DNA from: Microbacteriaceae bacterium
GTDB taxonomy: Bacteria > Actinomycetota > Actinomycetes > Actinomycetales > Microbacteriaceae
Direction: 5' to 3'
Assembly (NCBI GenBank): GCA_025464895.1
Contig: JAODMG010000102.1
Coordinates: 1-47,886 of the forward strand
Length of the DNA: 47,886 nucleotides
Under the pieces are notes generated by a model. It was not told where the DNA came from. It did no database searches and saw nothing but the letters and a program-made list of their open reading frames with translations. The position numbers were made by a program, and so were the translations under genes. Positions 12,773 to 35,226 of the stretch are shown piece after piece (position 1 is the stretch's first letter; every line of letters begins with the position of its first letter).

Positions 12773-12785
12773 CGGCAGGTGATCG

Positions 12786-12823
12786 GGCCTCGGTCGGGAC
12801 GGTGTCCCGGCCGGGGCCTTTTT
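12786..12823 (+). terminator. Intrinsic terminator after pyk
   Basis: 15-bp stem GGCCTCGGTCGGGAC/GTCCCGGCCGGGGCC (2 G-U pairs), 3-nt loop, followed by TTTTT. Confidence 0.85.
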
Positions 12824-12848
12824 CGTGCGCAGATCCATTGTCGCCATG

Positions 12849-12866
12849 CCGTTTGCCTCCGAATGA
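12849..12866. promoter_or_regulatory. 18-bp palindromic operator, copy 1 (CCGTTTGCCTCCGAATGA)
   Basis: Matches the motif repeated in six intergenic positions of the cluster; lies just upstream of candidate -10 TAGCCT (12869-12874). Confidence 0.7.
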
Positions 12867-12918
12867 TCTAGCCTTGGTCGCAGTCCCAGCTCGAACACGA
12901 TTGATCGGATGGTCTCCA

Positions 12919-14433
12919 ATGGCGAAGACAACAGCAGGCAAGACCCTCGGTGACTGGACGAAGCAGGCGAACGAAATCGCCTGGCCGTCGACGCTGGTGG
13001 TGGACGGCAGGCTGGTCGAGTCACAGGACGGCGCGACCTTCGCTCACATCAGCCCTCGCGAGGGAAGCCTGCTCACCAACGTTCCATCCGGAAGTGTCGG
13101 CGACATCGACCTCGCGGTGGCCGCGGCGCGGCGGGCGTTCGACGACGGACCATGGCCGCGCTTCGCCCCCAGGGTCCGCAAGGAATTGATGCTCCGGTTC
13201 GCGGAGCTTATCGAGGCGCACCGCGATGAGCTCGCCATCATGATCAGTCTCGAGATGGGCAAGCCGATCGACGACGCATGGGGCATCGAGCTGCGGGCGG
13301 TGCTCGCGACCTACCGCTGGTACGCGGAGCTCGCGGACAAGGAGCTCGACGAGATCTCGCCGGTCGGATCGGATGACCTCGCACTCATCACCCGCGAGCC
13401 GGTCGGAGTCGTTGGCGTTGTAACCCCGTGGAACTTCCCTCTCACCCTCGCGGCCTGGAAGATCGCGCCGGCAATGGCGGTCGGCTGCACGATCGTGCAG
13501 AAGCCATCGGATCTGAGTTCGCCTTCGGCCATCCGGATGGCCGAGTTGGCGCTCGAAGCGGGGATACCGGCCGGAGTGCTGAACGTCGTCCCCGGGCGGG
13601 GTTCTGTGCTCGGCAGGCACCTTGGGATGCATCCGGGCGTCGATGCTCTCGCGTTCACCGGTTCGACCGAGGTCGGTCGCGCCTACCTCGAATACTCGGC
13701 GAGATCGAACCTCAAACGAACCTGGCTCGAGCTCGGAGGCAAGTCGGGCAACATCATCCTTCCGGATGCTCCCGATCTCGACGTCGCCATAGCGACCGCG
13801 GCCTGGGGCATCTTCTTCAACAGCGGCCAGATGTGCACTGCGCCGTCGCGGCTGATCGTGCACCGCGATATCGCGGACGAGGTGATTGCCGGAGTGGTCG
13901 CACGCGCCGCAGACTACCGTCCGGGGGATCCGCTCGACCCGGAGACGAAGATGGGTCCGCTGGCATCCGGAACACGGCTCTCGGAGGTCGAGGGACACGT
14001 GCGGGAGGCCAGGGAGGACGGCGCGGAGGCTATCGTCGGCGGCAGCGCGTATGACGGCGTCGACGTTCCTGCCAACGGGGTCTACTTCGAGCCGACCATC
14101 TTCACCGGAGTGTCGCCGGACTCCAGGCTTGCCCAGAACGAGGTGTTCGGCCCTGTGCTCGCGATCGTGACGGTGAACGACGACGAGGAGGCCATACGGG
14201 TCGCGAACAACTCCGACTACGGGCTGGCCGCCGGGCTCTGGACCTCGGATGTCTCGAAGGTGCACCGCCTATCGCGCCGGCTCCGCGCCGGCACAGTCTG
14301 GGTCAACTGCTACGAGGAGGGCGACCTCACCGTGCCGTTCGGCGGCTACAAGCTCTCTGGCAACGGCCGGGACAAGTCGCGGCATGCCCTCGAGAAGTAC
14401 ACCGAGCTGAAGACGACGTTCATCCACCTCTGA
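12919..14433 (+). CDS. NAD(P)-dependent aldehyde dehydrogenase, PuuC-like
   Basis: PWNFPL, FTGSTEVG, LELGGKS, FNSGQMC, EVFGPV; C-terminus PFGGYKLSGNGRDKSRHALEKYTELKT closely resembles PuuC-type ALDHs; start moved to ATG 12919. Confidence 0.9.
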   Translation: MAKTTAGKTLGDWTKQANEIAWPSTLVVDGRLVESQDGATFAHISPREGSLLTNVPSGSVGDIDLAVAAARRAFDDGPWPRFAPRVRKELMLRFAELIEAHRDELAIMISLEMGKPIDDAWGIELRAVLATYRWYAELADKELDEISPVGSDDLALITREPVGVVGVVTPWNFPLTLAAWKIAPAMAVGCTIVQKPSDLSSPSAIRMAELALEAGIPAGVLNVVPGRGSVLGRHLGMHPGVDALAFTGSTEVGRAYLEYSARSNLKRTWLELGGKSGNIILPDAPDLDVAIATAAWGIFFNSGQMCTAPSRLIVHRDIADEVIAGVVARAADYRPGDPLDPETKMGPLASGTRLSEVEGHVREAREDGAEAIVGGSAYDGVDVPANGVYFEPTIFTGVSPDSRLAQNEVFGPVLAIVTVNDDEEAIRVANNSDYGLAAGLWTSDVSKVHRLSRRLRAGTVWVNCYEEGDLTVPFGGYKLSGNGRDKSRHALEKYTELKTTFIHL

Positions 14434-14460
14434 GCGTCGGGAGCCGACGGGCTGGAAACC

Positions 14461-15954
14461 TCAGGAGATCACGTCGCGCAACAGCTCCGGATTGACGGTG
14501 CGACGCGTGCTCGACACTGCGAAGCCGACGATGAGCACGGCGAACGGCAGCAGGATGAGAATCCAGCCGATCGGGCTCTGGGCCCACGGCGTGACCGTCG
14601 GGTCGACGCCCTCCGCCGCGGTTCCCGCCAACAGTCCGAACCGCGACATCAGCAGGTATTCTCCGAGCACGAGGCCGACCAGGGCGATGATCGGCGCGAT
14701 CACGGTCTGGAAGGCATTCTCCTCCCCGCGATTGGCGCGGAAGTACGCGATCACGGCGATGCAGACCAACATTTCGATGAGCACGATGGCCACGACCGCC
14801 AGCCCGCTGAACCAGTTGAACAGGTTGAGCACCGGGTCGAGCTGGAACACCGCGAAGATCACGATGACGACACCGGTGATGATCGAGGTCAGGACGGATG
14901 CCGCACCAGGAGCACCGCGACGGTTGACCGTATTGAGCCGCTGCGGCAGCACGCCGCCTCGTCCCATCGCGAACAGGTAGCGGCTGGCCGCGTTCTGGAA
15001 CGCGAGGAGGCCGGCGAACAGGCTCGACAACACCAGGATGCTCATCACCGTCGCCATCCACGGTCCGACGTATTGCGATGCGAGGGAGAACAGCACCGCC
15101 GCCGGGTTCTCGAGCCCATTCGAAATGCTCGCGACCTTGTCGACGGCGCTCGACGCGCCGAGGCCGGTGACCATCGCGAACGCGGTCAGGGAGAACAGCA
15201 CGGTGATGACGACCACCGCGAGGTAGGTCGCCCGAGGGACCGCTCGCTTCGGGTTCTTCGACTCTTCGCCGTAGATGGCGGTCGCTTCGAAGCCGATGAA
15301 TGAGGCGAAAGCGAAGGCGAACGCGATCCCGGCAGACCCGGCGAGGCCACCGACCAGGATCTTGTCCGGCGCGAAGGATGCGGCGAAGTTGATGCCATCC
15401 GGTCCACCGTTGACGAGGATCGCGATCGAGGTGACGACGAGCGAGATGAGTTCGAGCAGCATCAGTCCTCCGAGCACTCTCGCGCCTACATCGACGCTGA
15501 GGAGCGACAGGAGCGTGACCACGGCCCATGCCACCAGGGTCCAGGCCCACCACGGCATCACCCCAAGCTGGGCCGAGATGACGGCGCCGAAGAAACCGTA
15601 GATCGCCAGTTGCACCGCGACGTAGGCGAGGATCGACACGAAGGCAGAGGCGATTCCGGCGTGCCTGCCGAGTCCCCGGCCGACATAGGCGAAGAAGGCT
15701 CCCGCGTTGGTGACCCGTTGGCTCATTGCCGCGTACCCGACGCTGAACAGCAGCAGGGTGATGCCGACGACGAGGTAGGCGCCAGGAGCCGCAGCCCCGT
15801 TACCGAGAAGAATCGCGACCGGGACCGCGCCGGTCATCCCGACCAGGGGGGCCGCGGCGGCGACCACGAAAAAGACGATTCCGATCACCCCGAGACGACC
15901 GCGTCGAAGAGTGGTCCCGGTCTCGCTGTCGCGTGCCTGCTCGGTAATCACCAT
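14461..15954 (-). CDS. APC family amino acid/amine permease
   Basis: About 12 TM helices, FFVVAAAAPL, SFIGFEATAIYGEESKNPKRAVPRATY; ATG at 15954 has GAGGAG 7 nt upstream. Confidence 0.9.
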   Translation of the reverse strand: MVITEQARDSETGTTLRRGRLGVIGIVFFVVAAAAPLVGMTGAVPVAILLGNGAAAPGAYLVVGITLLLFSVGYAAMSQRVTNAGAFFAYVGRGLGRHAGIASAFVSILAYVAVQLAIYGFFGAVISAQLGVMPWWAWTLVAWAVVTLLSLLSVDVGARVLGGLMLLELISLVVTSIAILVNGGPDGINFAASFAPDKILVGGLAGSAGIAFAFAFASFIGFEATAIYGEESKNPKRAVPRATYLAVVVITVLFSLTAFAMVTGLGASSAVDKVASISNGLENPAAVLFSLASQYVGPWMATVMSILVLSSLFAGLLAFQNAASRYLFAMGRGGVLPQRLNTVNRRGAPGAASVLTSIITGVVIVIFAVFQLDPVLNLFNWFSGLAVVAIVLIEMLVCIAVIAYFRANRGEENAFQTVIAPIIALVGLVLGEYLLMSRFGLLAGTAAEGVDPTVTPWAQSPIGWILILLPFAVLIVGFAVSSTRRTVNPELLRDVIS

Positions 15955-15988
15955 GGTCATACTCCTCGTCGAGTTCATGAACCGCAGG

Positions 15989-16006
15989 TCGTCCGTGTCC
16001 GAACGA
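15989..16006. promoter_or_regulatory. 18-bp palindromic operator, copy 2 (TCGTCCGTGTCCGAACGA)
   Basis: Upstream of the permease; overlaps by 1 nt the candidate minus-strand -10 CATAAT (16006-16011). Confidence 0.65.
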
Positions 16007-16078
16007 TTATGTCCACAATGACAAACGCGTGACGCCGCGTCAATAGCCCGGACCCGATCCGTCTCGGCCGCGAATCGC

Positions 16079-16096
16079 TCATTTGGGTGCAAACGA
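16079..16096. promoter_or_regulatory. 18-bp palindromic operator, copy 3 (TCATTTGGGTGCAAACGA)
   Basis: Covers the expected -35 region of the promoter whose -10 is TACACT (16112-16117). Confidence 0.7.
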
Positions 16097-16125
16097 TGCC
16101 GGGTGGTCGGCTACACTCTGGCCCT

Positions 16126-16935
16126 ATGAACGCACTCAATGGGTTCCTGCCGCCACTGACGCCGACCGGAACCAGCTCGCTCGTGCCGAGTCCTCCGTGG
16201 CACTACTCGGGAACCCTGCTCACCGTGGAGTATCGGACGGACCCCGGCAACATCCGCGCCATCCTCCCCGCCGACCTCGACCTGGCACCGGATGATCCGG
16301 GCGCCGTCGCCATCATCTGGGCGGACTGGCAGTCCTGCAGCGATGGGGGACTGGAGCTGCTCGATCCGATCCGTTCGCAGTATCTCGAGGCATTCGTCGT
16401 GGTGCGCTGCTCGTATGCCGGCGTCGTCTATAGTCGCTGCGTCGCCATCTGGGTCACCAAGGACTTCGCGATGGCACGCGGCTGGTTCCAGGGCTACCCG
16501 AAGAAGCTTGGTTCGATCCAGGTCACCCGCATCTTCAACCGGGGGAAGGCCACCCCGAGGCTCGAGGCAGGTGCACAACTCGGGGCGTCGCTCTCGGCCT
16601 ACGACCACCGGCTGGCCTCTGCGGTGGTGACCCTTCGCGCGCCCGCGGAGAGCAATGGCTTCGTCAACGGCCATCGGATGCTGCACAACCGTTTCCTGCC
16701 GTCCATCGGCAAGGGCGACGGGCTCTCCCTCGACCAGCTCGTGTCGATGGGAGGCGTCGACCTCGATCTCGGCCAGGCCTGGGAGGGCGACGCTGAGCTC
16801 TCGCTCGCCGATTCACCGTGGGACGAGTTGCACTCGATTCTTCCGGTCCACGAGATCATCGGCGGCTACTACCGCGAGGTCGGCACCACCTTCGACGGGG
16901 GAGAGCTGATCGTCGATCGCTCGCGCGCGGTCTGA
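16126..16935 (+). CDS. Acetoacetate-decarboxylase-fold protein, MppR-like subfamily
   Basis: N-terminal GFLPPLTPTG..SLVPSPPWHYSG, SQYLEAF, Schiff-base motif RGWFQGYPKKLG. Confidence 0.85.
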   Translation: MNALNGFLPPLTPTGTSSLVPSPPWHYSGTLLTVEYRTDPGNIRAILPADLDLAPDDPGAVAIIWADWQSCSDGGLELLDPIRSQYLEAFVVVRCSYAGVVYSRCVAIWVTKDFAMARGWFQGYPKKLGSIQVTRIFNRGKATPRLEAGAQLGASLSAYDHRLASAVVTLRAPAESNGFVNGHRMLHNRFLPSIGKGDGLSLDQLVSMGGVDLDLGQAWEGDAELSLADSPWDELHSILPVHEIIGGYYREVGTTFDGGELIVDRSRAV

Positions 16936-16979
16936 CCTGGCGCCGGTTGCCGCGCCATCCGGGGCGCTCGTAGCCGGGG

Positions 16980-18326
16980 CTAGTAGTCCTCGAGGTACTC
17001 GTCCAGCTCCCACTGGGTGACCAGCCGGGTCGCAGGGTCCTCGACGGCGTCCTCGTAACGCGACACCTCATCCCGCTTCATCATGGTGAAAACGTCGACG
17101 AGCGGCTCTCCGAGGGACGCACGGAACAGCCGGCTCGAATCGAGGGCGTCCAGTGCGCTCGACAGCGACTCCGGCAGTATCTCGGCCGCCTCGTTCTGGT
17201 AGGCCCAGCCGTCCGCGGTGGCTGGGACCGGGAGTTTCCTGACGATGCCGTCGAGCGCGGCGGCCAGCACGGACGCGATCATCAGGTACGGATTCGCCGC
17301 ACCGTCTCCCACTCGAAGCTCCAGCCGGGTTCCAGCCCCTCGTTCCGGCGGAACGCGCACCATCGTGCTGCGATTGTCGTGACCCCAATTCGCCCGGTAC
17401 GGCGCGAGGGTGTCTGGACCGAGTCGCTTGTATGCGTTCACGGTCGGGTTGGTCAGCGCGACGAGCGCCGGCGCGTTGTCCAGGATGCCCGCGATCATCT
17501 GGTTCGCCAGCCCGGAGAGTTCGCCGTCGCTCACCATCAGGTTCGTGCCAGCCGCGTCGACCACCGAGAAGTGCAGGTGGAACCCGCTCCCTCCCTCGTC
17601 GCTCCACGGCCTGCCGAGGAAGGTGGCCAGCTTCCCGGAGCGGGCGACGATGTCTTTCACCGACGTCTTGAACAGGAAGGTCCTGTCCGCCGCCCGCATC
17701 GCCTCGCCGTGCCAGAGGTTGATCTCGTACTGGGACGGACTGAACTCGTGGTTCCCGGCGAAGACGCCGATATCCATCCGGTCCAGGGTCCGGAGCAGTG
17801 TCAGGAACGTGCCGTCCGGGTCGACCCATGCGCCGGTCGTGTAGACCCGTCCCGTGCGCTGCAATGCGCGCTGCCACCCGCCGTCGCCACGCTCGGCGAT
17901 GTAGAACTCGAGTTCTGGACCAACGATCGGGGTGAGACCGAGCGCAGCGTACTGCTCGATGACCCGACGCAGCGCGGACCTGGGGGAGAGCCGGCTATCC
18001 GAGCCGTCCGGGTCGGCCGCGTCGGCGACCACCATCGCGACGCCCGGCTCCCACGGCATCGGCGTGATCGTGGTCGGGTCGATCGTGGTCACCAGGTCCG
18101 GCAGCCCGCTCGACATGATGTCGTTGCCGTCGAGCACGCCTCCGCGGGACGTCGTCACCCAGACTCCCTGGCAGAACGCCGGCCCGTTGGCCGCCGAGCG
18201 GTCGAGTTGGCTGACCAGCAGGTCCTTCGAACGGGTGATGCCGAGGATGTCCGGGAAGATCAGTCGAAGCACGTCGATGCCCTGGCCTTCGAGTTGAGAT
18301 CGCACTGCGGCGACGTCGATGCTCAT
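16980..18326 (-). CDS. Glutamine-synthetase-family protein, probable gamma-glutamyl-amine ligase
   Basis: GPELEFY, HEFSPSQYEI, GSGFHLHFS, DNRSTMVRVP, RLELRVGD; lacks the canonical YEAP flap (has TLAP); ATG 18326 preceded by AAAGGAG. Confidence 0.88.
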   Translation of the reverse strand: MSIDVAAVRSQLEGQGIDVLRLIFPDILGITRSKDLLVSQLDRSAANGPAFCQGVWVTTSRGGVLDGNDIMSSGLPDLVTTIDPTTITPMPWEPGVAMVVADAADPDGSDSRLSPRSALRRVIEQYAALGLTPIVGPELEFYIAERGDGGWQRALQRTGRVYTTGAWVDPDGTFLTLLRTLDRMDIGVFAGNHEFSPSQYEINLWHGEAMRAADRTFLFKTSVKDIVARSGKLATFLGRPWSDEGGSGFHLHFSVVDAAGTNLMVSDGELSGLANQMIAGILDNAPALVALTNPTVNAYKRLGPDTLAPYRANWGHDNRSTMVRVPPERGAGTRLELRVGDGAANPYLMIASVLAAALDGIVRKLPVPATADGWAYQNEAAEILPESLSSALDALDSSRLFRASLGEPLVDVFTMMKRDEVSRYEDAVEDPATRLVTQWELDEYLEDY

Positions 18327-18349
18327 CTTCCAGCTCCTTTGCCGAGAAA

Positions 18350-18367
18350 TCATTCGGGCCTGAACGA
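18350..18367. promoter_or_regulatory. 18-bp palindromic operator, copy 4 (TCATTCGGGCCTGAACGA)
   Basis: In the divergent gap between the GS-like gene and the GATase gene. Confidence 0.7.
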
Positions 18368-18433
18368 ATAGTGCGATACTAGGCCAAATCACACGGCTGT
18401 GGGCCGACGTGACTGGCCGCGAAAGGCGATGCC

Positions 18434-19138
18434 GTGAAAGCCCTGTTCGTACAGCACGATCACATCAGCCCGACGGGGCCGGTCGCCGAGCGACTCGCGC
18501 AGCGCGGATTCGACGTCGAATCTGTTGTCGTGGTCGACGCCGAGAACTTCCACAGTCCGAACGTCGACTTCAGCTTTCCGGATGCGGGCGACTACGACCT
18601 CCTGGTTCCGATGGGTGCGCCGTGGGGTGCCTGGGACGACGCCAGCATCGGCCGGTGGCTGCAGCCGGAGATCGCCTGGATCCGTGATGCGATCGACCGG
18701 GACATCCCGGTGCTCGGGATCTGCTTCGGCGGACAACTCATCGCCCGTGCGCTCGGCGGAGTTGTCGGACCGGCCAGGAAGGCCGAGATCGGCTGGACCG
18801 CGATTCACAGCGATGACCCGTCGCTGGTGTCATCCGGCCCATGGTTCCAGTTCCACTACGACAGTTGGACCCTCCCGGCCGGAGCAACCGAGATCGCCAG
18901 GAACTCGGTGGCATCACAGGCCTTCCGCTACGGCAGAACGCTGGCCGTCCAGTTTCATCCAGAGCTCACCGCCGGCACCCTCGAGGGCTGGTTGCGCGAG
19001 GGCGGGGCAGAGCAGGTGAGCGACGACGGCCAGGACGCGGATGCGCTGCTCGCGCACACCATGGCGGAGGAGCGCGACGCGGCGGCGAGAACGGTCGCCC
19101 TCATCGATGCCTACCTCGATCGAGTCGCGAAACTATAG
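18434..19138 (+). CDS. Class I glutamine amidotransferase-like protein (possible gamma-glutamyl-amide hydrolase)
   Basis: PVLGICFGGQL nucleophile Cys and VQFHPE His-Glu of the triad; stand-alone domain next to the GS-like gene. Confidence 0.88.
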   Translation: MKALFVQHDHISPTGPVAERLAQRGFDVESVVVVDAENFHSPNVDFSFPDAGDYDLLVPMGAPWGAWDDASIGRWLQPEIAWIRDAIDRDIPVLGICFGGQLIARALGGVVGPARKAEIGWTAIHSDDPSLVSSGPWFQFHYDSWTLPAGATEIARNSVASQAFRYGRTLAVQFHPELTAGTLEGWLREGGAEQVSDDGQDADALLAHTMAEERDAAARTVALIDAYLDRVAKL

Positions 19139-19163
19139 CGGTCTGGATGCTCGAGCTGAACAG

Positions 19164-20417
19164 CTAGCGCGCCAGTTCGACCCGCACCGGGAACCGTTTG
19201 ATCCCGTTGATGAAATTGCTGCGCAGACGGTCCAGCGTGCCGGTCTGATGCATTCCACTGATCCGCGGCAGCAGGTCCTCGAACATGATCCGGATCTCCA
19301 GCCGGGCGAGCGCGTTCCCCATGCACATGTGCGGGCCGCCTCGGCCGAACGCCATGTGCTCGTTGGGATTGCGGGTCACATCCATCCGATACGGGTCCTC
19401 GAATACCCCCGGATCGCGATTGCCTGCCGCGAACCAGGTGACCACCTTGTCGCCTTCCTTGATCGCCTGGCCGCCGATCTCCGTGTCCATCGTCGCGGTC
19501 CTGCGAAAGTGATAGACCGGGCTGGCCAGTCGCAAGAACTCCTCGATCGCCCACGGGATCAGCTCAGGACGCTCCTGCAGCAGGGCGAGCTGGTCCGGGT
19601 TCTGCATGAGGTAGTGCATCGAGTGGGTGATGCTGTGTCTCGTCGTCTCGTTCCCCGCGACCACGAGCAGGAGGAAATAACTGTTGAAGTCCCGGTCGGA
19701 GAGCGGGACGTCGTCCATCGGCGTCTGGTTGACCAGGCGCGACACGAGGTCTGTCCCATCTTTTCCGCGGCGCTGCTTGGCGAGCTCGCGCCCGTAGGCG
19801 AAGACCTCCTGCGCCGCAGGGGAGCGGAACGGCAACAGTCGGTACTGCTCGCTCTCATCCGAGTGGAGGAGAACGTCCGCGTGCTCCGGGTCGGTGTTTC
19901 CGACCATCCGATTTCCCCAATCGATCAGGCGATGGATGTCGGTGTCCGGCACGTCCATCATCCGCGCGAGCACCCTGATCGGAAAGTCGGCCGCGACATC
20001 GGCGACGAAATCGAACTCGCCCTTCGCGAAAGCAGCGTCGAGTGTGGTCGCGGTGAGCCCGCGGAGGAATGTCTCATAGCCGACGACCGCCTTCGGGTTG
20101 AACTCGCCCTGCATCAGGCGACGAAGGGCCCGGTGCCGCACCCCATCCGTCTCGAGCATCGACTTCCTGGCTTCGATCTGGTCGGCGTCGAGCTCTTCGA
20201 GGTTCACCGTCCCGCGTTCGCTGGAGAACGTCTCGGTGTCGCGAAGCACCCCGACGATGTCGTGATAGCGGGTGAGCGACCAGAAACCGTGGTTCGGCGC
20301 GTCCTCGTCGTCCCAGTGCACCGGGGCGTTCGCTCGCAGCTCGTCGAACACTTCCCACGGCTGTTCCCGCTCGAATAGATCGAGGTCGGCAAGTGTGACA
20401 TTCGCCAGTGAAGTCAA
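19164..20417 (-). CDS. Cytochrome P450 (CYP124/125-like features)
   Basis: I-helix LLVVAGNETTRH, EEFLR ExxR motif, heme motif FGRGGPHMCMG; TTG start with GGAGG 5 nt upstream. Confidence 0.93.
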   Translation of the reverse strand: MTSLANVTLADLDLFEREQPWEVFDELRANAPVHWDDEDAPNHGFWSLTRYHDIVGVLRDTETFSSERGTVNLEELDADQIEARKSMLETDGVRHRALRRLMQGEFNPKAVVGYETFLRGLTATTLDAAFAKGEFDFVADVAADFPIRVLARMMDVPDTDIHRLIDWGNRMVGNTDPEHADVLLHSDESEQYRLLPFRSPAAQEVFAYGRELAKQRRGKDGTDLVSRLVNQTPMDDVPLSDRDFNSYFLLLVVAGNETTRHSITHSMHYLMQNPDQLALLQERPELIPWAIEEFLRLASPVYHFRRTATMDTEIGGQAIKEGDKVVTWFAAGNRDPGVFEDPYRMDVTRNPNEHMAFGRGGPHMCMGNALARLEIRIMFEDLLPRISGMHQTGTLDRLRSNFINGIKRFPVRVELAR

Positions 20418-20434
20418 CGCATCCTCCGGGGATA

Positions 20435-20452
20435 TTGTTAGGATGCGAACAA
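20435..20452. promoter_or_regulatory. 18-bp palindromic operator, copy 5 (TTGTTAGGATGCGAACAA)
   Basis: Between P450 and MarR genes; overlaps candidate minus-strand -10 TAGGTT (20451-20456). Confidence 0.7.
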
Positions 20453-20554
20453 CCTACACCTCAGGCAGGGGACGCAACAGCTCCGAAGCACACTCGTGAC
20501 CCCGTTGGGGTGAACTAGAGTTGCGACACCCGCGGATTGCCAAGGAGATACGAC

Positions 20555-21055
20555 ATGCCCGGACCTCACACCCTGGTCGAGACGGAACGACGGGTCGATG
20601 AGCGGCTCGGCCAACTCGACATCGACTTCACGTCAATGGCAGTGGTATCCAACCTGTTCCGTGCCGCGAACGCCGTCCGCAACCACCTCGAACGCACCGT
20701 CCTGGCGGAACACGACCTCTCCTGGACGGGGTTTGTCGTGCTCTGGGTCACCTGGATCTGGGAGCCGATCGAGACCAGGCAGATCGCCGTGGAGGGCGGG
20801 TTCTCGAAGGCAACGCTCACCGGGGTGCTGTCGACTCTCGAAGGCAGGGGTTGGCTGGCACGGGAGAAGAGCCAGAGCGACGGCCGACTGGTCCTCGTGC
20901 GGATGACACCGGCAGGCAGGGACCTGATGGAGACACTGTTCCCTGCGTTCAACGAACAGGAACGGCACGTCGCAAGCCCCGTCGATCCGGCCAAGCGCGG
21001 CGAATTGGCCGAAATGCTCCGCGTGGTGACCGTGAACGTTGAGAAACAGTCCTAG
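20555..21055 (+). CDS. MarR family transcriptional regulator
   Basis: Winged-helix pattern SKATLTGVLSTLEGRGWLAR...DGRLVLVRMTPAG; ATG 20555 preceded by AAGGAG. Confidence 0.92.
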   Translation: MPGPHTLVETERRVDERLGQLDIDFTSMAVVSNLFRAANAVRNHLERTVLAEHDLSWTGFVVLWVTWIWEPIETRQIAVEGGFSKATLTGVLSTLEGRGWLAREKSQSDGRLVLVRMTPAGRDLMETLFPAFNEQERHVASPVDPAKRGELAEMLRVVTVNVEKQS

Positions 21056-21092
21056 CGCTGTTGTAGAGCCAATGCCGATTGGATAGGCTAAC

Positions 21093-21110
21093 TCATTAGC
21101 ATCCGAATGA
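21093..21110. promoter_or_regulatory. 18-bp palindromic operator, copy 6 (TCATTAGCATCCGAATGA)
   Basis: Just downstream of candidate -10 TAGGCT (21084-21089), upstream of the ring-cleavage operon. Confidence 0.75.
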
Positions 21111-21142
21111 TTTAACGACGAGTCATTCGAGACGGGAACTGC

Positions 21143-22606
21143 ATGTCCACGATCGAGGTTGCCGGAGTCCAGGTCGACCTCCGGCATTACATCGGAGGCC
21201 GGCGAATCGAGTCGGAGTCCACGTTTCGGAACAGTTCGCCGATCGACGGCAGTTTCCTCGGCGACATCGCCAGAGGCGGCCAGCGCGAGGTTGATCTCGC
21301 CGTCGCGGCGGCGACCGACGCCTTCCCCGTGTGGTCGACCACGCCGCCTGCCGACCGTGCCGCCGTCCTGAACCGGATAGCAGACCTGGTCGACCAGAAC
21401 CTGTCGGACCTCGCCATTGTCGAGACCACGGACAACGGGGCGCTGCTCCGCAGCCATCTCCGCGGCGTGATGCCGAGGGTCGCGCACAATTTTCGCTTCT
21501 TCGCCGACTGGCTGGTCAACCACCTGGGGCATCCGGATTTCGAGACCCGCGGCCACACGAATCACGTCAGCTGGGACCCGTCTGGGGTGGCCGCCCTCAT
21601 CACGCCGTGGAATGCGCCGCTGATGCTCGCCACCTGGAAGATCGCGCCGGCCCTGGCCGCCGGGGACACCGTCGTTCTGAAACCGGCAGAGTGGACTCCG
21701 CTGACCGCGTCGCTGTTCGCCGATCTCACCAAGCAGGCCGGGCTGCCGGATGGAGCGTTCAACGTTGTGCAGGGCTACGGGAGCGAGGCGGGGGCGGCCC
21801 TGGTGGCCCACCCGGGGCTCAGGCGAATCTCCTTCACCGGCTCGGTCCCCACCGCGAAGACGATCGCGATGGCCGCGGCAGAAAACCTCACGCCCTGCAG
21901 TTTCGAGCTCGGCGGCAAGAGCCCGTTCATCGTGCTCGCGGATGCCGACCTCGAGTTGGCGGCCGACCTCGCAGTCGAGCAGTACGACAACGCCGGCCAG
22001 GTGTGCCTCTCCGGCACCCGCATCCTCGTCCACGACAGCATTGCCGATCGTTTTTCGGCGGTCTTCCGTGCGAGGGCCGAGGCACTGCGGCAGGGTGATC
22101 CGAGGGACCCCGAGACGGACATCGGCCCGCAGATCCACCCAGCCCACTTCGACCGGGTCAAGGGCTTCGTCGACCGTGCATCCGCCGAGGGGGCGGACAT
22201 CGTCTTCGGCGGAACTCCGAACGAGGAGCTCGGCGGACTCTACTTCCGGCCAACACTGGTGAACGAGCCGTCGCGAGACAGCGAGATCGTCACAGAGGAG
22301 GTCTTCGGCCCGGTGCTCACCATGCAGAGATTCTCGACCGACGACGAGGCAATCGCCGTGGCGAACGGCACAGAGTTCGGGCTCGCCGCCGTTGTCGTCT
22401 CCGGCAACAGGACACACGCCGACGCGATCACATCGCGCCTGGTCGCCGGCACCATCTGGGTGAACTGCTTCTTCGTCCGCGACCTGCGGGCGCCATTCGG
22501 CGGCTCGAAGAAATCCGGGGTCGGGCGAGAAGGCGGCACCTGGTCGTTCGACTTCTATGCGGACGTGAAGAACACGGTCGTTGCTCCACAGGGATGGAAG
22601 GAATAG
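21143..22606 (+). CDS. Aldehyde dehydrogenase, (carboxymethyl)hydroxymuconic-semialdehyde dehydrogenase type (HpaE/XylG-like)
   Basis: ITPWNAPLMLATWKIAPALAAG, KPAEWTPLTA, FELGGKS, GQVCLSG, VRDLRAPFGGSKKSGVGREGG. Confidence 0.88.
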   Translation: MSTIEVAGVQVDLRHYIGGRRIESESTFRNSSPIDGSFLGDIARGGQREVDLAVAAATDAFPVWSTTPPADRAAVLNRIADLVDQNLSDLAIVETTDNGALLRSHLRGVMPRVAHNFRFFADWLVNHLGHPDFETRGHTNHVSWDPSGVAALITPWNAPLMLATWKIAPALAAGDTVVLKPAEWTPLTASLFADLTKQAGLPDGAFNVVQGYGSEAGAALVAHPGLRRISFTGSVPTAKTIAMAAAENLTPCSFELGGKSPFIVLADADLELAADLAVEQYDNAGQVCLSGTRILVHDSIADRFSAVFRARAEALRQGDPRDPETDIGPQIHPAHFDRVKGFVDRASAEGADIVFGGTPNEELGGLYFRPTLVNEPSRDSEIVTEEVFGPVLTMQRFSTDDEAIAVANGTEFGLAAVVVSGNRTHADAITSRLVAGTIWVNCFFVRDLRAPFGGSKKSGVGREGGTWSFDFYADVKNTVVAPQGWKE

Positions 22607-22609
22607 GAA

Positions 22610-23518
22610 ATGGGAGAAGTAGTAGGCGTCGGCCTGATCGCTCATGTACCGACGATCATGCTGCCCCGTGACGAGCGGCTGGCCATCAACGACGGCAAAG
22701 AGATCACCCTGGTACCCGGTCTCGAGAAGCTTCGCAAAGACGTGTTCGAGTCGGATGACTATGACACCGTCGTCGTACTCGACAGCCACTGGGCAACCAC
22801 CGTCGAGTACGTGATCTCCTCGCACGAGCACCGCGGCGGAAAGTTCACATCGGAGGAACTGCCGAGAGGGATGCACGGGGTGCCGTTCGGCTACCGCGGA
22901 GATCCGCAACTCGCCGAACTCGCCGGCCGATTCGCCGAGAAGAACGGAACCTGGATCACGCCGATCGACGACCCGGACCTGCCGGTAATGTACGCGACGA
23001 TCAACCTCTGGAAGTTTCTCGGCGAGGGCCTCGACAAGCGCTGGGTGAGTCTCAGCGTCTGCCAGACCGGAACAGACGAAGACATGCTCCGTGCGGGCAG
23101 GGCGCTCGGTGAGGCCATCGCGGCGAGCGATCGCCGCGTCATCCTGCTGGCATCCGGTGCGCTGTCGCACACCTTCTACAAGCTGCGCGAGCTCCGCAAA
23201 CACGAGGCGAGCGACCCGAAGCACATCTTCTCCGACAAGGCCAGGGCAGCGGACTACGAGCGACTCGAATGGATGAAGGCCGGCGAGCACGGCAAGATCC
23301 TCGAGTCGATGCCCGCATTCCACACGGTGCGGCCGGAGGCCATGTTCGGCCACTGGCTGCTGGCGGCCGGCGCCATCGGCGAAGAAGACTGCACCGCTCC
23401 AGGCGAGCTGTACAGCGAATACGAGAACTCGATCGGAACCGGACAGGTCCACGTCTGGTTTCCTCGTCCGGCCGACGGCTTCCCGCTGGCCAAGGATGTG
23501 ACGCTGTCCCGTGACTGA
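22610..23518 (+). CDS. LigB-fold extradiol dioxygenase, homoprotocatechuate 2,3-dioxygenase (HpaD)-like
   Basis: AHVPTI, VVLDSHW, SEELP, YATI, ASGALSHTF and GTGQ motifs parallel those of HpaD. Confidence 0.85.
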   Translation: MGEVVGVGLIAHVPTIMLPRDERLAINDGKEITLVPGLEKLRKDVFESDDYDTVVVLDSHWATTVEYVISSHEHRGGKFTSEELPRGMHGVPFGYRGDPQLAELAGRFAEKNGTWITPIDDPDLPVMYATINLWKFLGEGLDKRWVSLSVCQTGTDEDMLRAGRALGEAIAASDRRVILLASGALSHTFYKLRELRKHEASDPKHIFSDKARAADYERLEWMKAGEHGKILESMPAFHTVRPEAMFGHWLLAAGAIGEEDCTAPGELYSEYENSIGTGQVHVWFPRPADGFPLAKDVTLSRD

Positions 23519-24401
23519 GTTCCGGCGCATTCTGCTCGACGGCGTTGCCACCCAGGTGGTAAGGCACGGCGGCACACTGACCGCGTCCGACGGGAGGGAG
23601 GTCTCGGCCGAAAGTGCGGTGCACCTTCCCCCGACCGAGCCGAGCAAGATCATCGCCGTGCACCTGAACTACGCCAGCCGCACCGAAGAATTCATGACGA
23701 AACTGCCGGATGCGCCGACCTACTTCCAGAAGCCGGTGACCGCGCTCAACAGCCACGGTGGGGCCGTGGTCCGTCCGCTCGGGTGCAAATGGCTGAACTT
23801 CGAAGGCGAGATCGTCATCGTCATCGGTCGAACCTGCCGCAACGTGTCCCCGGCGGAGGCCGGCGACTACATTGCGGGCTACACGATCGGGAACGACTTC
23901 GGCCTCCACGATTTCCGGGACACCGATGCCGGTTCGATGCTGCGGGTCAAGGGCAGTGACACCCTGGCGCCGGTCGGCCCGGGCCTCGTCACCGACTGGG
24001 ACTTCCGCGACAAGCAGATCCGCACCATGGTGAACGGGGTCGTGAAGCAGGACGACAGCACGGCGAACATGAAGTGGGACATGCATTACCTGGTCGCGGA
24101 CATCGCCCGCACGATCACCCTCAGCCCCGGCGACCTGCTGTTCACCGGCACCCCGGCGTTCTCGCGTCCGGTGGAGCCCCGGGACGTCATCGAGGTCGAG
24201 GTCGAGGGCCTCGGCACCCTGCGCAACCACGTGGTGTCCGGTCCGATCCCGATACGAACGGATGTCGGTGCCCAACCCAGCGAGAGCGAAGAGGTCGTCT
24301 CGACGGCGCTCGGCGGCGACTGGGAGTTTCGCGGCATCCGCACCCCGTCGAAAGACCTGTACCCCTCGACGGTCGAGGAGACGACAGTGGAGGACAGCTA
24401 G
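23511..24401 (+). CDS. Fumarylacetoacetate hydrolase family protein (HpaG-like decarboxylase/isomerase)
   Basis: KIIAVHLNY, FQKP, FEGEI, GYTIGND, RVKGSDT, PGDLLFTGTP. Confidence 0.9.
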   Translation: MTEFRRILLDGVATQVVRHGGTLTASDGREVSAESAVHLPPTEPSKIIAVHLNYASRTEEFMTKLPDAPTYFQKPVTALNSHGGAVVRPLGCKWLNFEGEIVIVIGRTCRNVSPAEAGDYIAGYTIGNDFGLHDFRDTDAGSMLRVKGSDTLAPVGPGLVTDWDFRDKQIRTMVNGVVKQDDSTANMKWDMHYLVADIARTITLSPGDLLFTGTPAFSRPVEPRDVIEVEVEGLGTLRNHVVSGPIPIRTDVGAQPSESEEVVSTALGGDWEFRGIRTPSKDLYPSTVEETTVEDS

Positions 24402-24593
24402 TTGATCAAGGTTGAAGTGGATATGAGTCTCTGCCAGAACTATGGGCAGTGCGTGTTCGAAGCGCCCAGGATTTTCCATCTGAACGACGACGACAAGCTC
24501 GAGCACCTGGCGGAAGCCAATGACGATGAGCGCGACCAGGTCGAGTCTGCGGTGGATGTCTGCCCGATGCAGGCCATTCGAATCGTCGACTGA
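24402..24593 (+). CDS. Ferredoxin, 3Fe-4S type (P450-associated)
   Basis: CQNYGQC...CPMQAI motif; 63 aa; abuts both neighbouring genes with zero spacing. Confidence 0.9.
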   Translation: MIKVEVDMSLCQNYGQCVFEAPRIFHLNDDDKLEHLAEANDDERDQVESAVDVCPMQAIRIVD

Positions 24594-25808
24594 ATGAGCA
24601 CCCCGGCCGAGGCTCCGGTCGTCATCGTCGGTGGCGCGATGGGAGGACTGCGGGCGGCCGAGGCCCTCAGGCGAGCCGGATATACCGGCGGAGTGAAGGT
24701 CGTCGGACAGGAACTGCACGCCCCGTACAATCGGCCGCCGCTGTCCAAGGATGTCCTGTCGACCGTCGTCACCCACGAGGCCGTCGCCTTCCCAGAGCGT
24801 GCGGCAACGGCCGATGTCGACTGGGTGCGCGGGGTGTCAGCCACCGACGCCGATCTCGAGGCGAGAACCGTGACGACCGACGACGGCGAAGTGCATCCCT
24901 GGAAGGCACTGGTCATCGCGACCGGTCTTCGGGCCCGCCGCCTGGCGCTTCCCGAGCTGCCGGGCCGCCAGGCCATCCGCACTCTCGACGATGCAATCGC
25001 CCTCCGGGCACAGTTGACCGATGTCGCCAGGATTGTCGTGCTCGGCTCCGGATTCCTCGGCTGTGAAGTCGCCGCCACCGCACGAAAGCTGGGCTGTGAT
25101 GTGACCATCGTGTCGCCGAGCGACCTACCGATAGTCCGCCCGCTCGGTCGACTCGTCGCCGGCGAGATTCAACGCCGCCACGAGGCAAAGGGGGTGCGAT
25201 TCCGGTTGGGAAGAACGGTGGAGCACCTCGACGGCGAGGATCGACTCACCGCGGTGGCGCTGGACGACGGTGAACGGATCGAGGCGGATGTGCTGGTCGA
25301 GGCCATCGGATCGGACTGCAACAGCGAATGGTTGGCAGGCACCCCGCTGGACCTGACCGACGGGATCCGCGCCGACGCGGCCATGCGCGCGGTCTCGACC
25401 GATGGCATGGCCCACGACGACGTGTATGTCGTGGGAGACATCGCCAGGTTCCCGAACCTCATGTTCGACGACGTGCCGAGGCGGGTCGAGCACTGGAACA
25501 TCCCGACCGACACCGGAAAGCGTGCCGGTGCGGTTCTCGCCTCCTGGCTCGCGAACGACGGCTCGTTCGCCGACGCCGTTGCGCAGCCGTTCACGCCGAT
25601 GCCATCGTTCTGGTCCAACCAGTTCGAGCTAGCGCTGCAGGCGTACGGACTCCCGAGTCTCGCGGACGAGGACGGCATCAGGCTGCTCGATGGCGAGCTG
25701 TCGGGGGATGCGATCGTCGGCTACTACCGCGGCGACCGGCTGGTCGGGGTGGTCGGCCTCGGCATGAAGGCGGCCCTGCTGCCGTATCGCGCGACTATCG
25801 CCGGCTAG
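24594..25808 (+). CDS. FAD-dependent ferredoxin reductase
   Basis: PYNRPPLSK, LVIATG, GSGFLGCEVA, VGDIA, RRVEHW, PSFWSNQ. Confidence 0.92.
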   Translation: MSTPAEAPVVIVGGAMGGLRAAEALRRAGYTGGVKVVGQELHAPYNRPPLSKDVLSTVVTHEAVAFPERAATADVDWVRGVSATDADLEARTVTTDDGEVHPWKALVIATGLRARRLALPELPGRQAIRTLDDAIALRAQLTDVARIVVLGSGFLGCEVAATARKLGCDVTIVSPSDLPIVRPLGRLVAGEIQRRHEAKGVRFRLGRTVEHLDGEDRLTAVALDDGERIEADVLVEAIGSDCNSEWLAGTPLDLTDGIRADAAMRAVSTDGMAHDDVYVVGDIARFPNLMFDDVPRRVEHWNIPTDTGKRAGAVLASWLANDGSFADAVAQPFTPMPSFWSNQFELALQAYGLPSLADEDGIRLLDGELSGDAIVGYYRGDRLVGVVGLGMKAALLPYRATIAG

Positions 25809-34525: not shown

Positions 34526-35170
34526 CTACTGCCTTGGTGGCAGACGTGCCAACAGCCGCCGCGCGGCATCGGTCGGATCATCCGCTTCCGTGATCGCCCG
34601 AACGACCACGACACGGGTCGCGCCGGCATCCACGACCTGATCGATGTTGCCGAGGTCGATGCCGCCGATCGCGAACCACGGCACAGCGCTTCCCTTATCG
34701 CGGGTGCGTTCGCTTGCGTACCGAACGAGGCCCAGCCCCACCGCGGCACGCCCGGGTTTCGTCGGGGTTGGCCACAGCGGACCGACGCAGAAGTAGCTCA
34801 GGGTCGGGGAGACCAGCGCCGCATCGACCTGGGAGGGCGTGTGGCTGGAGAGCCCGATCGCTGCGGCGTCGCCGAGAATTCGGCGGGCGGCGGCGGGCGG
34901 CAGGTCATCCTGGCCGAGGTGCAGAACCGGCGCACCAGCCGCCTTGGCAATGTCGGCCCTGTCGTTGACCGCCCACAATCGCCCGTGACGTTCGGCGACC
35001 GTCCGGAGCACGCCGAGAAGTTCCAACTCCTCGGCAGCATCGAGACTCTTGTCTCTGAGCTGAATGATATCCACGCCTCCGGCGAAGGCGGCATCCAGGA
35101 ACTCGGCGAAATCGCCGCGGTTCTTCCTGGCATCGGTGCAGAGATACAGGTGGGCGCGATCGTGGTTCAT
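34526..35170 (-). CDS. thiE: Thiamine-phosphate synthase
   Basis: [49 protein letters not shown]. Confidence 0.95.
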
Positions 35171-35226
35171 TCGAACCAGAATAAGGGCGAGGTGCGACCC
35201 CGCCGACCACTGCCGCGAGTGTCCGC

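What the first reader, a model, noticed from the sequence alone, without database searches (positions are those of the whole stretch)
12849..21110. Six copies of one 18-bp palindrome mark every promoter region of the catabolic cluster
Seen: CCGTTTGCCTCCGAATGA (12849), TCGTCCGTGTCCGAACGA (15989), TCATTTGGGTGCAAACGA (16079), TCATTCGGGCCTGAACGA (18350), TTGTTAGGATGCGAACAA (20435) and TCATTAGCATCCGAATGA (21093). The consensus is about TCRTTNG-N4-CNAAYGA. All are intergenic and five sit on or next to a candidate promoter element. Inference: operators of the local MarR repressor. This independently supports the view that the oppositely oriented transcription units form one regulon and one pathway.
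Basis: partly seen in the sequence, partly recalled or inferred. Interest (0 to 1): 0.75.

Follow-up and report, generated by a model that had tools for sequence, protein, structure and literature searches.

The report
Conserved MarR operator, amine-catabolism regulon
The six 18-base palindromes are real and conserved across actinobacteria; they are likely the binding sites through which the cluster's own MarR-type repressor switches off an uncharacterised gene set, probably for breaking down a tyrosine-derived amine, and a seventh copy sits over the start of a decarboxylase gene elsewhere in the genome.

Summary
All six sites are at the stated coordinates, and a matrix built from them ranks them 1-6 in the 2.83-Mb genome. 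In 80 related loci, 352 of 360 hits lie at 5' ends of cluster genes (19.9 expected), and none precede operon-internal genes. Distant, rearranged clusters fetched without using MarR give 27 of 29 (2.6 expected). The MarR orthologue occurs in 33 of 36 cluster genomes and 0 of 10 controls. Its fold is nearest the UrtR repressors, whose operator geometry (TxxCT-N8-AGxxA) matches TxxTT-N8-AAxxA. Binding is inferred, not shown. The site also travels with its genes. It goes with the optional aldehyde dehydrogenase. It overlaps the ATG of a PLP decarboxylase that is detached here and in four congeners but cluster-embedded in 33 of 80 loci. The switch is ordinary in kind. The pathway (likely tyrosine/DOPA to amine, gamma-glutamylation, P450, meta-cleavage) was not found described in my searches. 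This scan already reported the operator and the cluster on other genomes (e1-2126261, e1-4977379, e1-4125054).

The parts
12849..12866 (.). Site 1, likely operator of aldA; lies between candidate -35 (ATGCCG 12846) and -10 (TAGCCT 12869)
   Evidence: site before aldA in 4 of 4 loci; absent from the pyk-apc gap in 5 of 5 loci lacking aldA
12919..14433 (+). aldA, aldehyde dehydrogenase; best model PuuC (534 bits, cut-off 850); accessory gene
   Evidence: not found at E<=1e-120 in 5 congeners
14461..15954 (-). APC-family amino acid/amine permease
15989..16006 (.). Site 2, likely operator just downstream of the candidate apc promoter (TTGACG-17-CATTGT on the - strand)
   Evidence: two sites in this gap in 50 of 52 loci
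16079..16096 (.). Site 3, likely operator over the -35 region of the apparently leaderless adc gene (-10 TACACT 16112)
16126..16935 (+). Acetoacetate-decarboxylase-like (MppR-like) protein; candidate hydratase/aldolase
   Evidence: the activity is recalled from the literature, not tested
16980..18326 (-). Glutamine-synthetase-like ligase; candidate gamma-glutamyl-amine synthetase
   Evidence: below all curated cut-offs
18350..18367 (.). Site 4, likely operator at the predicted start of the gs transcript (-10 TAGTAT 18376-18381, - strand); shared gap with gat
   Evidence: 62 of 62 loci
18434..19138 (+). Class I glutamine amidotransferase-like protein; candidate gamma-glutamyl hydrolase
19164..20417 (-). 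Cytochrome P450, nearest solved relatives in the CYP125/124/268 group; no characterised close homologue found
20435..20452 (.). Site 5, likely operator overlapping the P450 -10 candidate (TAGGTT 20451-20456, - strand); shared gap with marR
   Evidence: 79 of 79 loci; a second site in this gap in 27 of 79 loci
20555..21055 (+). MarR-family regulator with an extra N-terminal helix; likely binder
21093..21110 (.). Site 6, likely operator over the predicted start of the hpaE operon transcript (TTGTAG 21061, 17 nt, TAGGCT 21084)
   Evidence: TANNNT at offset -9 in 59 of 72; 72 of 73 loci
21143..22606 (+). HpaE-like semialdehyde dehydrogenase (517 bits, cut-off 638)
22610..23518 (+). LigB-family extradiol dioxygenase; nearest is 3,4-dihydroxyphenylacetate 2,3-dioxygenase (119 bits, cut-off 316)
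23511..24401 (+). FAH-family protein, HpaG C-terminal-like decarboxylase/isomerase
24402..24593 (+). Ferredoxin, likely P450 partner
24594..25808 (+). Ferredoxin-NAD reductase, likely P450 partner

Best explanation
The six palindromes are conserved sites at the heads of the cluster's transcription units and are likely the operators of the cluster's MarR dimer, which would block RNA polymerase until a pathway intermediate releases it. Shown: the sites, their conservation, and their fixed position on or beside candidate -10/-35 elements and predicted transcription starts. Inferred: the MarR binds them as a repressor; a seventh site over the ATG of the detached PLP decarboxylase (G000:C64:6204-6221) brings that gene into the regulon. 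Least certain, from gene content only: an aromatic amino acid (tyrosine or DOPA) is decarboxylated, or the amine is imported by the APC permease. The GS-like enzyme gamma-glutamylates it, and the P450 with ferredoxin and reductase converts it to a catechol. HpaD-, HpaE-, FAH- and ADC-like enzymes open the ring to pyruvate plus a (glutamyl) 4-aminobutanal. The PuuC-like dehydrogenase and the amidotransferase then give GABA and glutamate. I put about 0.8 on the regulatory claim and about 0.45 on this substrate and order.
For: Top six genome hits, with leave-one-out and shuffle controls. 352 of 360 hits at 5' ends in 80 loci; none before hpaD (0/63), fah (0/61), fdx (0/56) or fdr (0/53). Distant clusters fetched by the dioxygenase: 27 of 29 hits at 5' ends, 16 of 20 loci with a site. 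MarR orthologue in 33 of 36 dioxygenase-positive and 0 of 10 negative genomes. In G454 the marR lies about 6.9 Mb from the cluster and keeps an upstream site (11-12 bits). Strict pattern: 2 or more matches in 30 of 30 MarR-positive genomes. Eleven other MarR loci of this genome score at most 10.2. The model has an alpha0 helix, with top fold hits MftR/PecS/HucR; their operator TxxCT-N8-AGxxA (PMC11602129, passages) has the same length and key positions as TxxTT-N8-AAxxA. The printed HsmR operator scores 15.9 in register. The decarboxylase follows the P450 in 33 of 80 loci; its close subfamily is in 18 of 401 genomes, 17 of them MarR-positive; the detached copies in 5 of 5 genus-g1 genomes with a hit carry the site at -10..+8, a register reached by 1 of 67,357 ATGs in this genome. 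Peptidase C26 (PuuD-like) homologues occur in 38 of 80 loci, and class-III, GABA-transaminase-like genes follow the dioxygenase in 3 distant loci.
Against: No binding or expression data; the RNA search found nothing usable. The 80 loci were picked by MarR similarity, and kin are not independent. Four of 20 distant loci have no site >=14, including G774 with a 51% MarR orthologue beside the genes. Several detached marR loci show no nearby site (L169, L174, L178, L183). Ten of 20 MarR-negative genomes have 1-5 strict matches, which I did not examine. An unrelated MarR operator (HsmR) fits the matrix, so geometry points to the family and not to this protein. The five detached-decarboxylase genomes are one genus, hence one event; two other detached copies (G090, G056) lack the site. 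Every enzyme scores below its curated cut-off, and the P450's solved relatives are named as sterol and aliphatic-chain oxidases rather than aromatic hydroxylases.
Confidence: 0.8

Rival explanations
1. The sites are real operators, but of another regulator encoded elsewhere (for example another MarR or a global factor); the local MarR is a co-inherited passenger or acts indirectly.
For: MarR operators resemble each other (HsmR scores 15.9). G774 has the MarR but no full site. The genome has 15 matches to the HpaR-type MarR model.
Against: Motif and MarR co-occur across several families. The only other regulator among 51 unassigned ORFs in 14 distant loci is one ArsR. The window's TetR has no homologue in the 80 loci. 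The cluster lacking the MarR (G572) has no site >=14. A global factor would have many genome sites (13 hits >=15).
Confidence: 0.1
2. Same MarR regulon, different chemistry: the substrate is another aromatic amine (for example O-methylated, such as 3-methoxytyramine, or N-methylated or beta-hydroxylated), the P450 is a demethylase or side-chain oxidase, and the glutamyl group is removed before ring cleavage so that an acid such as homoprotocatechuate is cleaved.
For: The P450 has no characterised close relative. The dioxygenase and HpaE are nearest the homoprotocatechuate enzymes. aldA's models include phenylacetaldehyde dehydrogenase StyD, and aldA is dispensable.
Against: A group II decarboxylase nearest aromatic-amino-acid decarboxylases points to a primary arylethylamine. 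No amine oxidase or dehydrogenase was found in the clusters examined. PuuC/PuuD-like and GABA-transaminase-like genes fit a four-carbon amino-aldehyde product.
Confidence: 0.35
3. The regulator binding these sites is mainly an activator, or the palindromes are promoter elements or chance matches.
For: HpaR can activate from an upstream site (PMC7180172, passages). Sites 1 and 3 lie near -35 positions.
Against: Sites 2, 4, 5 and 6 overlap or follow the -10 and predicted start. Offsets to the promoter differ from site to site while the palindrome is kept. Chance is excluded.
Confidence: 0.04

Closest known systems
HpaR of E. coli W / Yersinia pseudotuberculosis (MarR repressor of homoprotocatechuate meta-cleavage genes)
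   Same: MarR repressor beside hpaE/hpaD/hpaG-like genes; operator halves spaced by 4 bp (TTAA-N4-TTAA; PMC7180172, passages), with one site over the -10.
   Different: Not an HpaR: 48 bits against a cut-off of 121, and two other MarRs of this genome score higher. The half-site differs (TTHG-N4-CDAA). The regulon has GS-like, amidotransferase, P450 and decarboxylase genes instead of hpaBC, hpaF, hpaH and hpaI.
UrtR subfamily (MftR, PecS, HucR)
   Same: Extra N-terminal alpha0 helix in the model, top fold hits (TM about 0.8); 18-bp operator with the same key positions.
   Different: No alpha0 Trp, no alpha2 Asp/Arg, and recognition core S-K-A-T instead of T/S-S-G-T; operator has T/A where UrtR has C/G. 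A urate response is therefore unlikely.
DesR of Sphingobium SYK-6 and HsmR of C. difficile (MarR operators)
   Same: DesR represses dispersed catabolic genes through similar inverted repeats and is released by substrate (PMC6888825, passages); the HsmR operator fits the matrix.
   Different: Different proteins, effectors and pathways.
Gamma-glutamylation routes: E. coli Puu, Streptomyces GlnA2/3/4, 1-naphthylamine NpaA1
   Same: GS-like ligase plus amidotransferase-like hydrolase plus PuuC-like dehydrogenase and APC permease (papers seen as search listing only; Puu steps recalled).
   Different: Here they are joined to a P450 system, a group II decarboxylase and a homoprotocatechuate-type ring-opening set under one MarR; no such combination turned up in searches or 85.

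Membership tests
MarR-family repressor regulon | Winged-helix MarR protein encoded with the target genes | tested here: met
   Pfam PF01047; model pLDDT 91 with MarR fold hits; wing D109-x-R111 invariant in 32 sequences
MarR-family repressor regulon | Palindromic operator overlapping promoters of target genes | tested here: met
   promoters are candidates, starts not mapped
MarR-family repressor regulon | Operator at the regulator's own promoter (autoregulation) | tested here: inconclusive
   Site 5 is 102 nt from marR here; a second site lies in that gap in 27 of 79 loci; detached marR keeps a site in G454 but not in L169, L174, L178, L183
MarR-family repressor regulon | Direct binding and ligand-induced release | not testable with these tools
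   needs EMSA or footprinting
HpaR (TIGR02337) | Score above the curated cut-off | tested here: not met
   47.8-48.1 bits against 121.2
HpaR (TIGR02337) | Operator core TTAA-N4-TTAA | tested here: not met
   same spacing, different bases: TTHG-N4-CDAA
UrtR subfamily | N-terminal alpha0 helix | tested here: met
   helix 7-18 in the model; top hits MftR
UrtR subfamily | alpha0 Trp and alpha2 Asp/Arg for urate binding; core T/S-S-G-T | tested here: not met
   first Trp is W57; MftR FDVLATLR aligns to FVVLWVTW; core is SKAT
Homoprotocatechuate meta-cleavage (hpa) pathway | HpaD, HpaE and HpaG equivalogs plus HpaF, HpaH, HpaI | tested here: not met
   homologues of D, E and G below cut-offs; no F, H or I model hit among the cluster proteins scanned
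Puu-type gamma-glutamylation pathway | GS-like ligase, PuuC and PuuD equivalogs with shown glutamylation of the amine | tested here: inconclusive
   homologues present, all below cut-offs; activity untested

The most novel reading that the evidence does not exclude
The operator marks a phylum-wide, undescribed route that degrades tyrosine or DOPA through its amine: decarboxylation, gamma-glutamyl capping, P450 hydroxylation to a glutamyl-catecholamine and meta-cleavage of the ring while still capped, ending in pyruvate, GABA and glutamate. It is run by a new alpha0-helix MarR subfamily that senses a gamma-glutamyl amine, and the motif alone identifies a detached decarboxylase as the entry step.
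Probability: 0.35. Interest if true: 0.75.

Novelty: new member of a known kind. Interest (0 to 1): 0.45.

Why it matters
As a switch this is ordinary. Its use is as a handle: it defines the membership of an uncharacterised catabolic regulon found in 52 of 401 sampled genomes of this family, including small-genome freshwater lineages, and in other actinobacterial families (36 of 400 phylum genomes carry the dioxygenase). It adds the decarboxylase as a likely entry enzyme, and it gives a direct way to find the substrate through a ligand-release screen on MarR plus operator, which would test a possible new route for tyramine/dopamine turnover in soil and water.

Tried and rejected
A pattern with a 6-base centre, sent by my slip, gave 0-3 scattered matches per genome and none in G000; it serves as a wrong-spacing control. 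Window hit at 35167 (17.5 bits) lies inside an ORF of the thiamine operon, and the downstream gene was not found in 5 congeners: probably chance, unresolved. C119:33491 is unresolved (see noticed). C35:8134, C139:7588, C235:2637 and C65:5323 were not tested in relatives. The window's TetR was rejected as binder (no homologue in 80 loci). The ~50% decarboxylase paralogues lack the site (12 loci L133-L144). Apparent -10 boxes for gat and marR at offsets +25 and +15 were rejected as mirror images of the opposite-strand TANNNT. The sigma-70 scan was uninformative. The E. coli HpaR footprinting paper and the Swit_4259 paper were not held, and a search for Sbi00515 gave nothing useful, so the hydratase/aldolase activity of ADC-like proteins is recalled. 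Literature searches for this regulon or pathway found no description; most subscription papers and RegPrecise itself could not be searched, and no supplements were read.
Full report
Observation. The six 18-mers are at the stated coordinates; 8, 12, 12, 14, 14 and 14 of 18 positions are self-complementary. The window is contig C176 of a 2.83-Mb, 65% GC genome whose closest named relatives are Microbacteriaceae such as Lacisediminihabitans and Parafrigoribacterium. A symmetric matrix from the six sites ranks them first to sixth in the genome. In leave-one-out tests each held-out site is reached by only 2-17 of 2,825,649 positions. With a matrix trained on 156 distinct sites from orthologous loci (some identical to window sites), 6 of 13 hits >=15 fall in the five cluster gaps (648 bases); 30 column-shuffled matrices gave 0-7 genome hits and none in the gaps.

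The cluster. Between pyruvate kinase and an alpha/beta hydrolase lie aldA (best model PuuC), an APC permease, an ADC/MppR-like protein, a GS-like ligase, a class I amidotransferase, a P450, the MarR, and an operon of HpaE-like, HpaD-like and FAH-family genes, ferredoxin and reductase. All enzyme scores are below the curated NCBIfam cut-offs. Eight transcription units share six sites.

Conservation. In the best 80 of 228 loci found with the MarR, the six-site matrix gave 360 hits >=14 in 1.17 Mb, 352 of them within about 200 bases of 5' ends of cluster genes (19.9 expected). Per gene: apc 53/53, adc 53/53, gs 62/62, gat 58/58, P450 79/79, marR 79/79, hpaE 72/73, aldA 4/4; divergent pairs share gaps, so these are not independent. 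Operon-internal genes have none: hpaD 0/63, fah 0/61, fdx 0/56, fdr 0/53. The consensus is TYRTTHG-N4-CDAAYRA. To avoid selecting on MarR, I searched 400 phylum genomes with the dioxygenase (36 positive) and fetched 20 of the 36. Gene order is shuffled there, yet 27 of 29 hits lie at 5' ends (2.6 expected) and 16 of 20 loci have a site. L151, L156, L162 and L164 have none >=14.

Position on promoters. Relative to the site start, TANNNT recurs at -9 before hpaE in 59 of 72 distinct contexts, with TTG at -32 in 35; at -14 before gs in 35 of 59; and at +20 before aldA in 3 of 4. A looser BANNNT recurs at -4 before the P450 (36 of 76) and at -15 or -14 before apc (39 of 52). In the window, sites 2, 4, 5 and 6 therefore overlap or follow the -10 and predicted start, and sites 1 and 3 cover the -35 or spacer. 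This is the layout of a repressor (inference). marR's own promoter is the weak point: site 5 is 102 nt from its start, although 27 of 79 loci have a second site in that gap.

Which protein. The MarR orthologue is in 52 of 401 family genomes, in 33 of 36 dioxygenase-positive phylum genomes and in 0 of 10 negative ones. A strict pattern has 2 or more matches in 30 of 30 MarR-positive genomes and any match in 10 of 20 negative ones, where the reversed control gives 0-7. In G454 the marR is about 6.9 Mb from the cluster and keeps an upstream site of 11-12 bits. G572, which lacks the MarR, has no site >=14. Against this, G774 has the MarR and only half-sites, and four detached marR loci show no site within 1.5 kb. 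Among 51 unassigned ORFs in 14 distant loci the only regulator was one ArsR. Eleven other MarR loci of G000 score at most 10.2. The AlphaFold model (pLDDT 91) has an extra N-terminal helix, and its top matches are MftR, PecS and HucR. PMC11602129 (passages) gives their operator as TxxCT-N8-AGxxA, with a Ser contacting the C. Our motif's most conserved positions form TxxTT-N8-AAxxA, and our protein has Lys at the aligned position; a link between these two changes is inference. It lacks the urate-binding Trp, Asp and Arg, so it is not a UrtR. It is not an HpaR either (48 against 121 bits), although HpaR sites share the 4-bp centre (PMC7180172, passages). The HsmR operator printed in PMC12541388 (passages) scores 15.9, which supports the family but warns that geometry does not single out one MarR.

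The site travels with genes. Five loci where pyk is followed directly by apc have neither aldA nor site 1 (best score -1.1). A group II PLP decarboxylase follows the P450 in 33 of 80 loci; its nearest solved relatives include DOPA, tryptophan and diaminobutyrate decarboxylases. In this genome it lies on C64 (80% identical) and carries CCGTTAGGGCATGAACGA across its ATG (15.4 bits). The four congeners with a hit have the same site at -10..+8 (11.8-15.3); their proteins share only Met-Asn-Glu before diverging. Eleven cluster-embedded copies and 12 distant paralogue loci have no such site. Only 1 of 67,357 ATGs in the genome scores >=11.8 in that register. The close subfamily occurs in 18 of 401 genomes, 17 of them MarR-positive. 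Limits: the five genomes are one genus, and detached copies in G090 and G056 lack the site. More distant decarboxylase homologues (31-54% over part of the length) sit just upstream of marR in several distant clusters.

Pathway (inferred). The decarboxylase, APC permease and GS-like ligase point to a primary aromatic amine that is glutamylated. The hpa-like genes need a catechol, which the P450 would supply. By analogy with the homoprotocatechuate route to pyruvate and succinic semialdehyde (PMC12718150, passages), a capped dopamine would give pyruvate and glutamyl-4-aminobutanal. That fits the PuuC-like aldA, the peptidase C26 homologues in 38 of 80 loci (this count may include cross-hits and neighbours outside the cluster), and GABA-transaminase-like genes behind the dioxygenase in three distant loci. 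The same paper reports that the HpaE-type enzyme also oxidises succinic semialdehyde, which could explain why aldA is optional. The ADC-like protein would replace HpaH and HpaI; that activity of its relatives is recalled, since the papers were not held. No step is shown, and the P450 has no characterised close relative.

Novelty. Substrate-released MarR repressors of dispersed catabolic genes are well known (DesR, PMC6888825, passages). I found no paper on this motif, regulator or pathway (listings only unless stated). This scan already reported the operator (e1-2126261) and the pathway reading (e1-4977379, e1-4125054) on other genomes; these are unchecked notes and not support. Verdict: real, well supported, ordinary as a switch, and useful as a handle on an undescribed pathway.

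Noticed in passing
G000:C64:6204-6221 (L111:5205-5222), outside the window: Seventh operator-like site across the ATG of an apparently leaderless PLP decarboxylase, downstream of a tRNA; conserved in four congeners.
   Followed up: yes
L112:5491-5508 (G000:C119:33491): Site TCGTTCGGATCCGAAATA 62 nt before a class-V aminotransferase, upstream of a Nudix-like regulator and nadA/nadB-like genes; five congeners have weaker semi-palindromes (6.9-12.1 bits) at the same offset. Weak regulon member or another regulator's site.
   Followed up: partly
window 35167-35184: Matrix hit (17.5 bits) inside an ORF just before the thiO-like gene of the thiamine operon; that gene was not found in five congeners.
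   Followed up: partly
L134-L140, L142, L143, upstream of the ~50% decarboxylase paralogues: Shared upstream element beginning CCCCAGTCGCACG and ending GTGGCGGG in small-genome Microbacteriaceae; no Rfam match in the four such loci scanned. Possibly an unknown cis element or hairpin.
   Followed up: partly
window 21123-21129: An extra half-site (TCATTCG) 12 nt downstream of site 6.
   Followed up: no
window 12785-12827: Strong intrinsic terminator after pyruvate kinase that insulates the cluster.
   Followed up: no
L159:5464-6030: A heliorhodopsin gene lies between the P450 and marR in one distant cluster.
   Followed up: no
G013: MarR-negative genome with 4 strict pattern matches and 0 in the reversed control; positions not examined.
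   Followed up: no
L048:2658-5182: An ornithine cyclodeaminase and CtlX module with a small regulator-like ORF is inserted between adc and gs.
   Followed up: no
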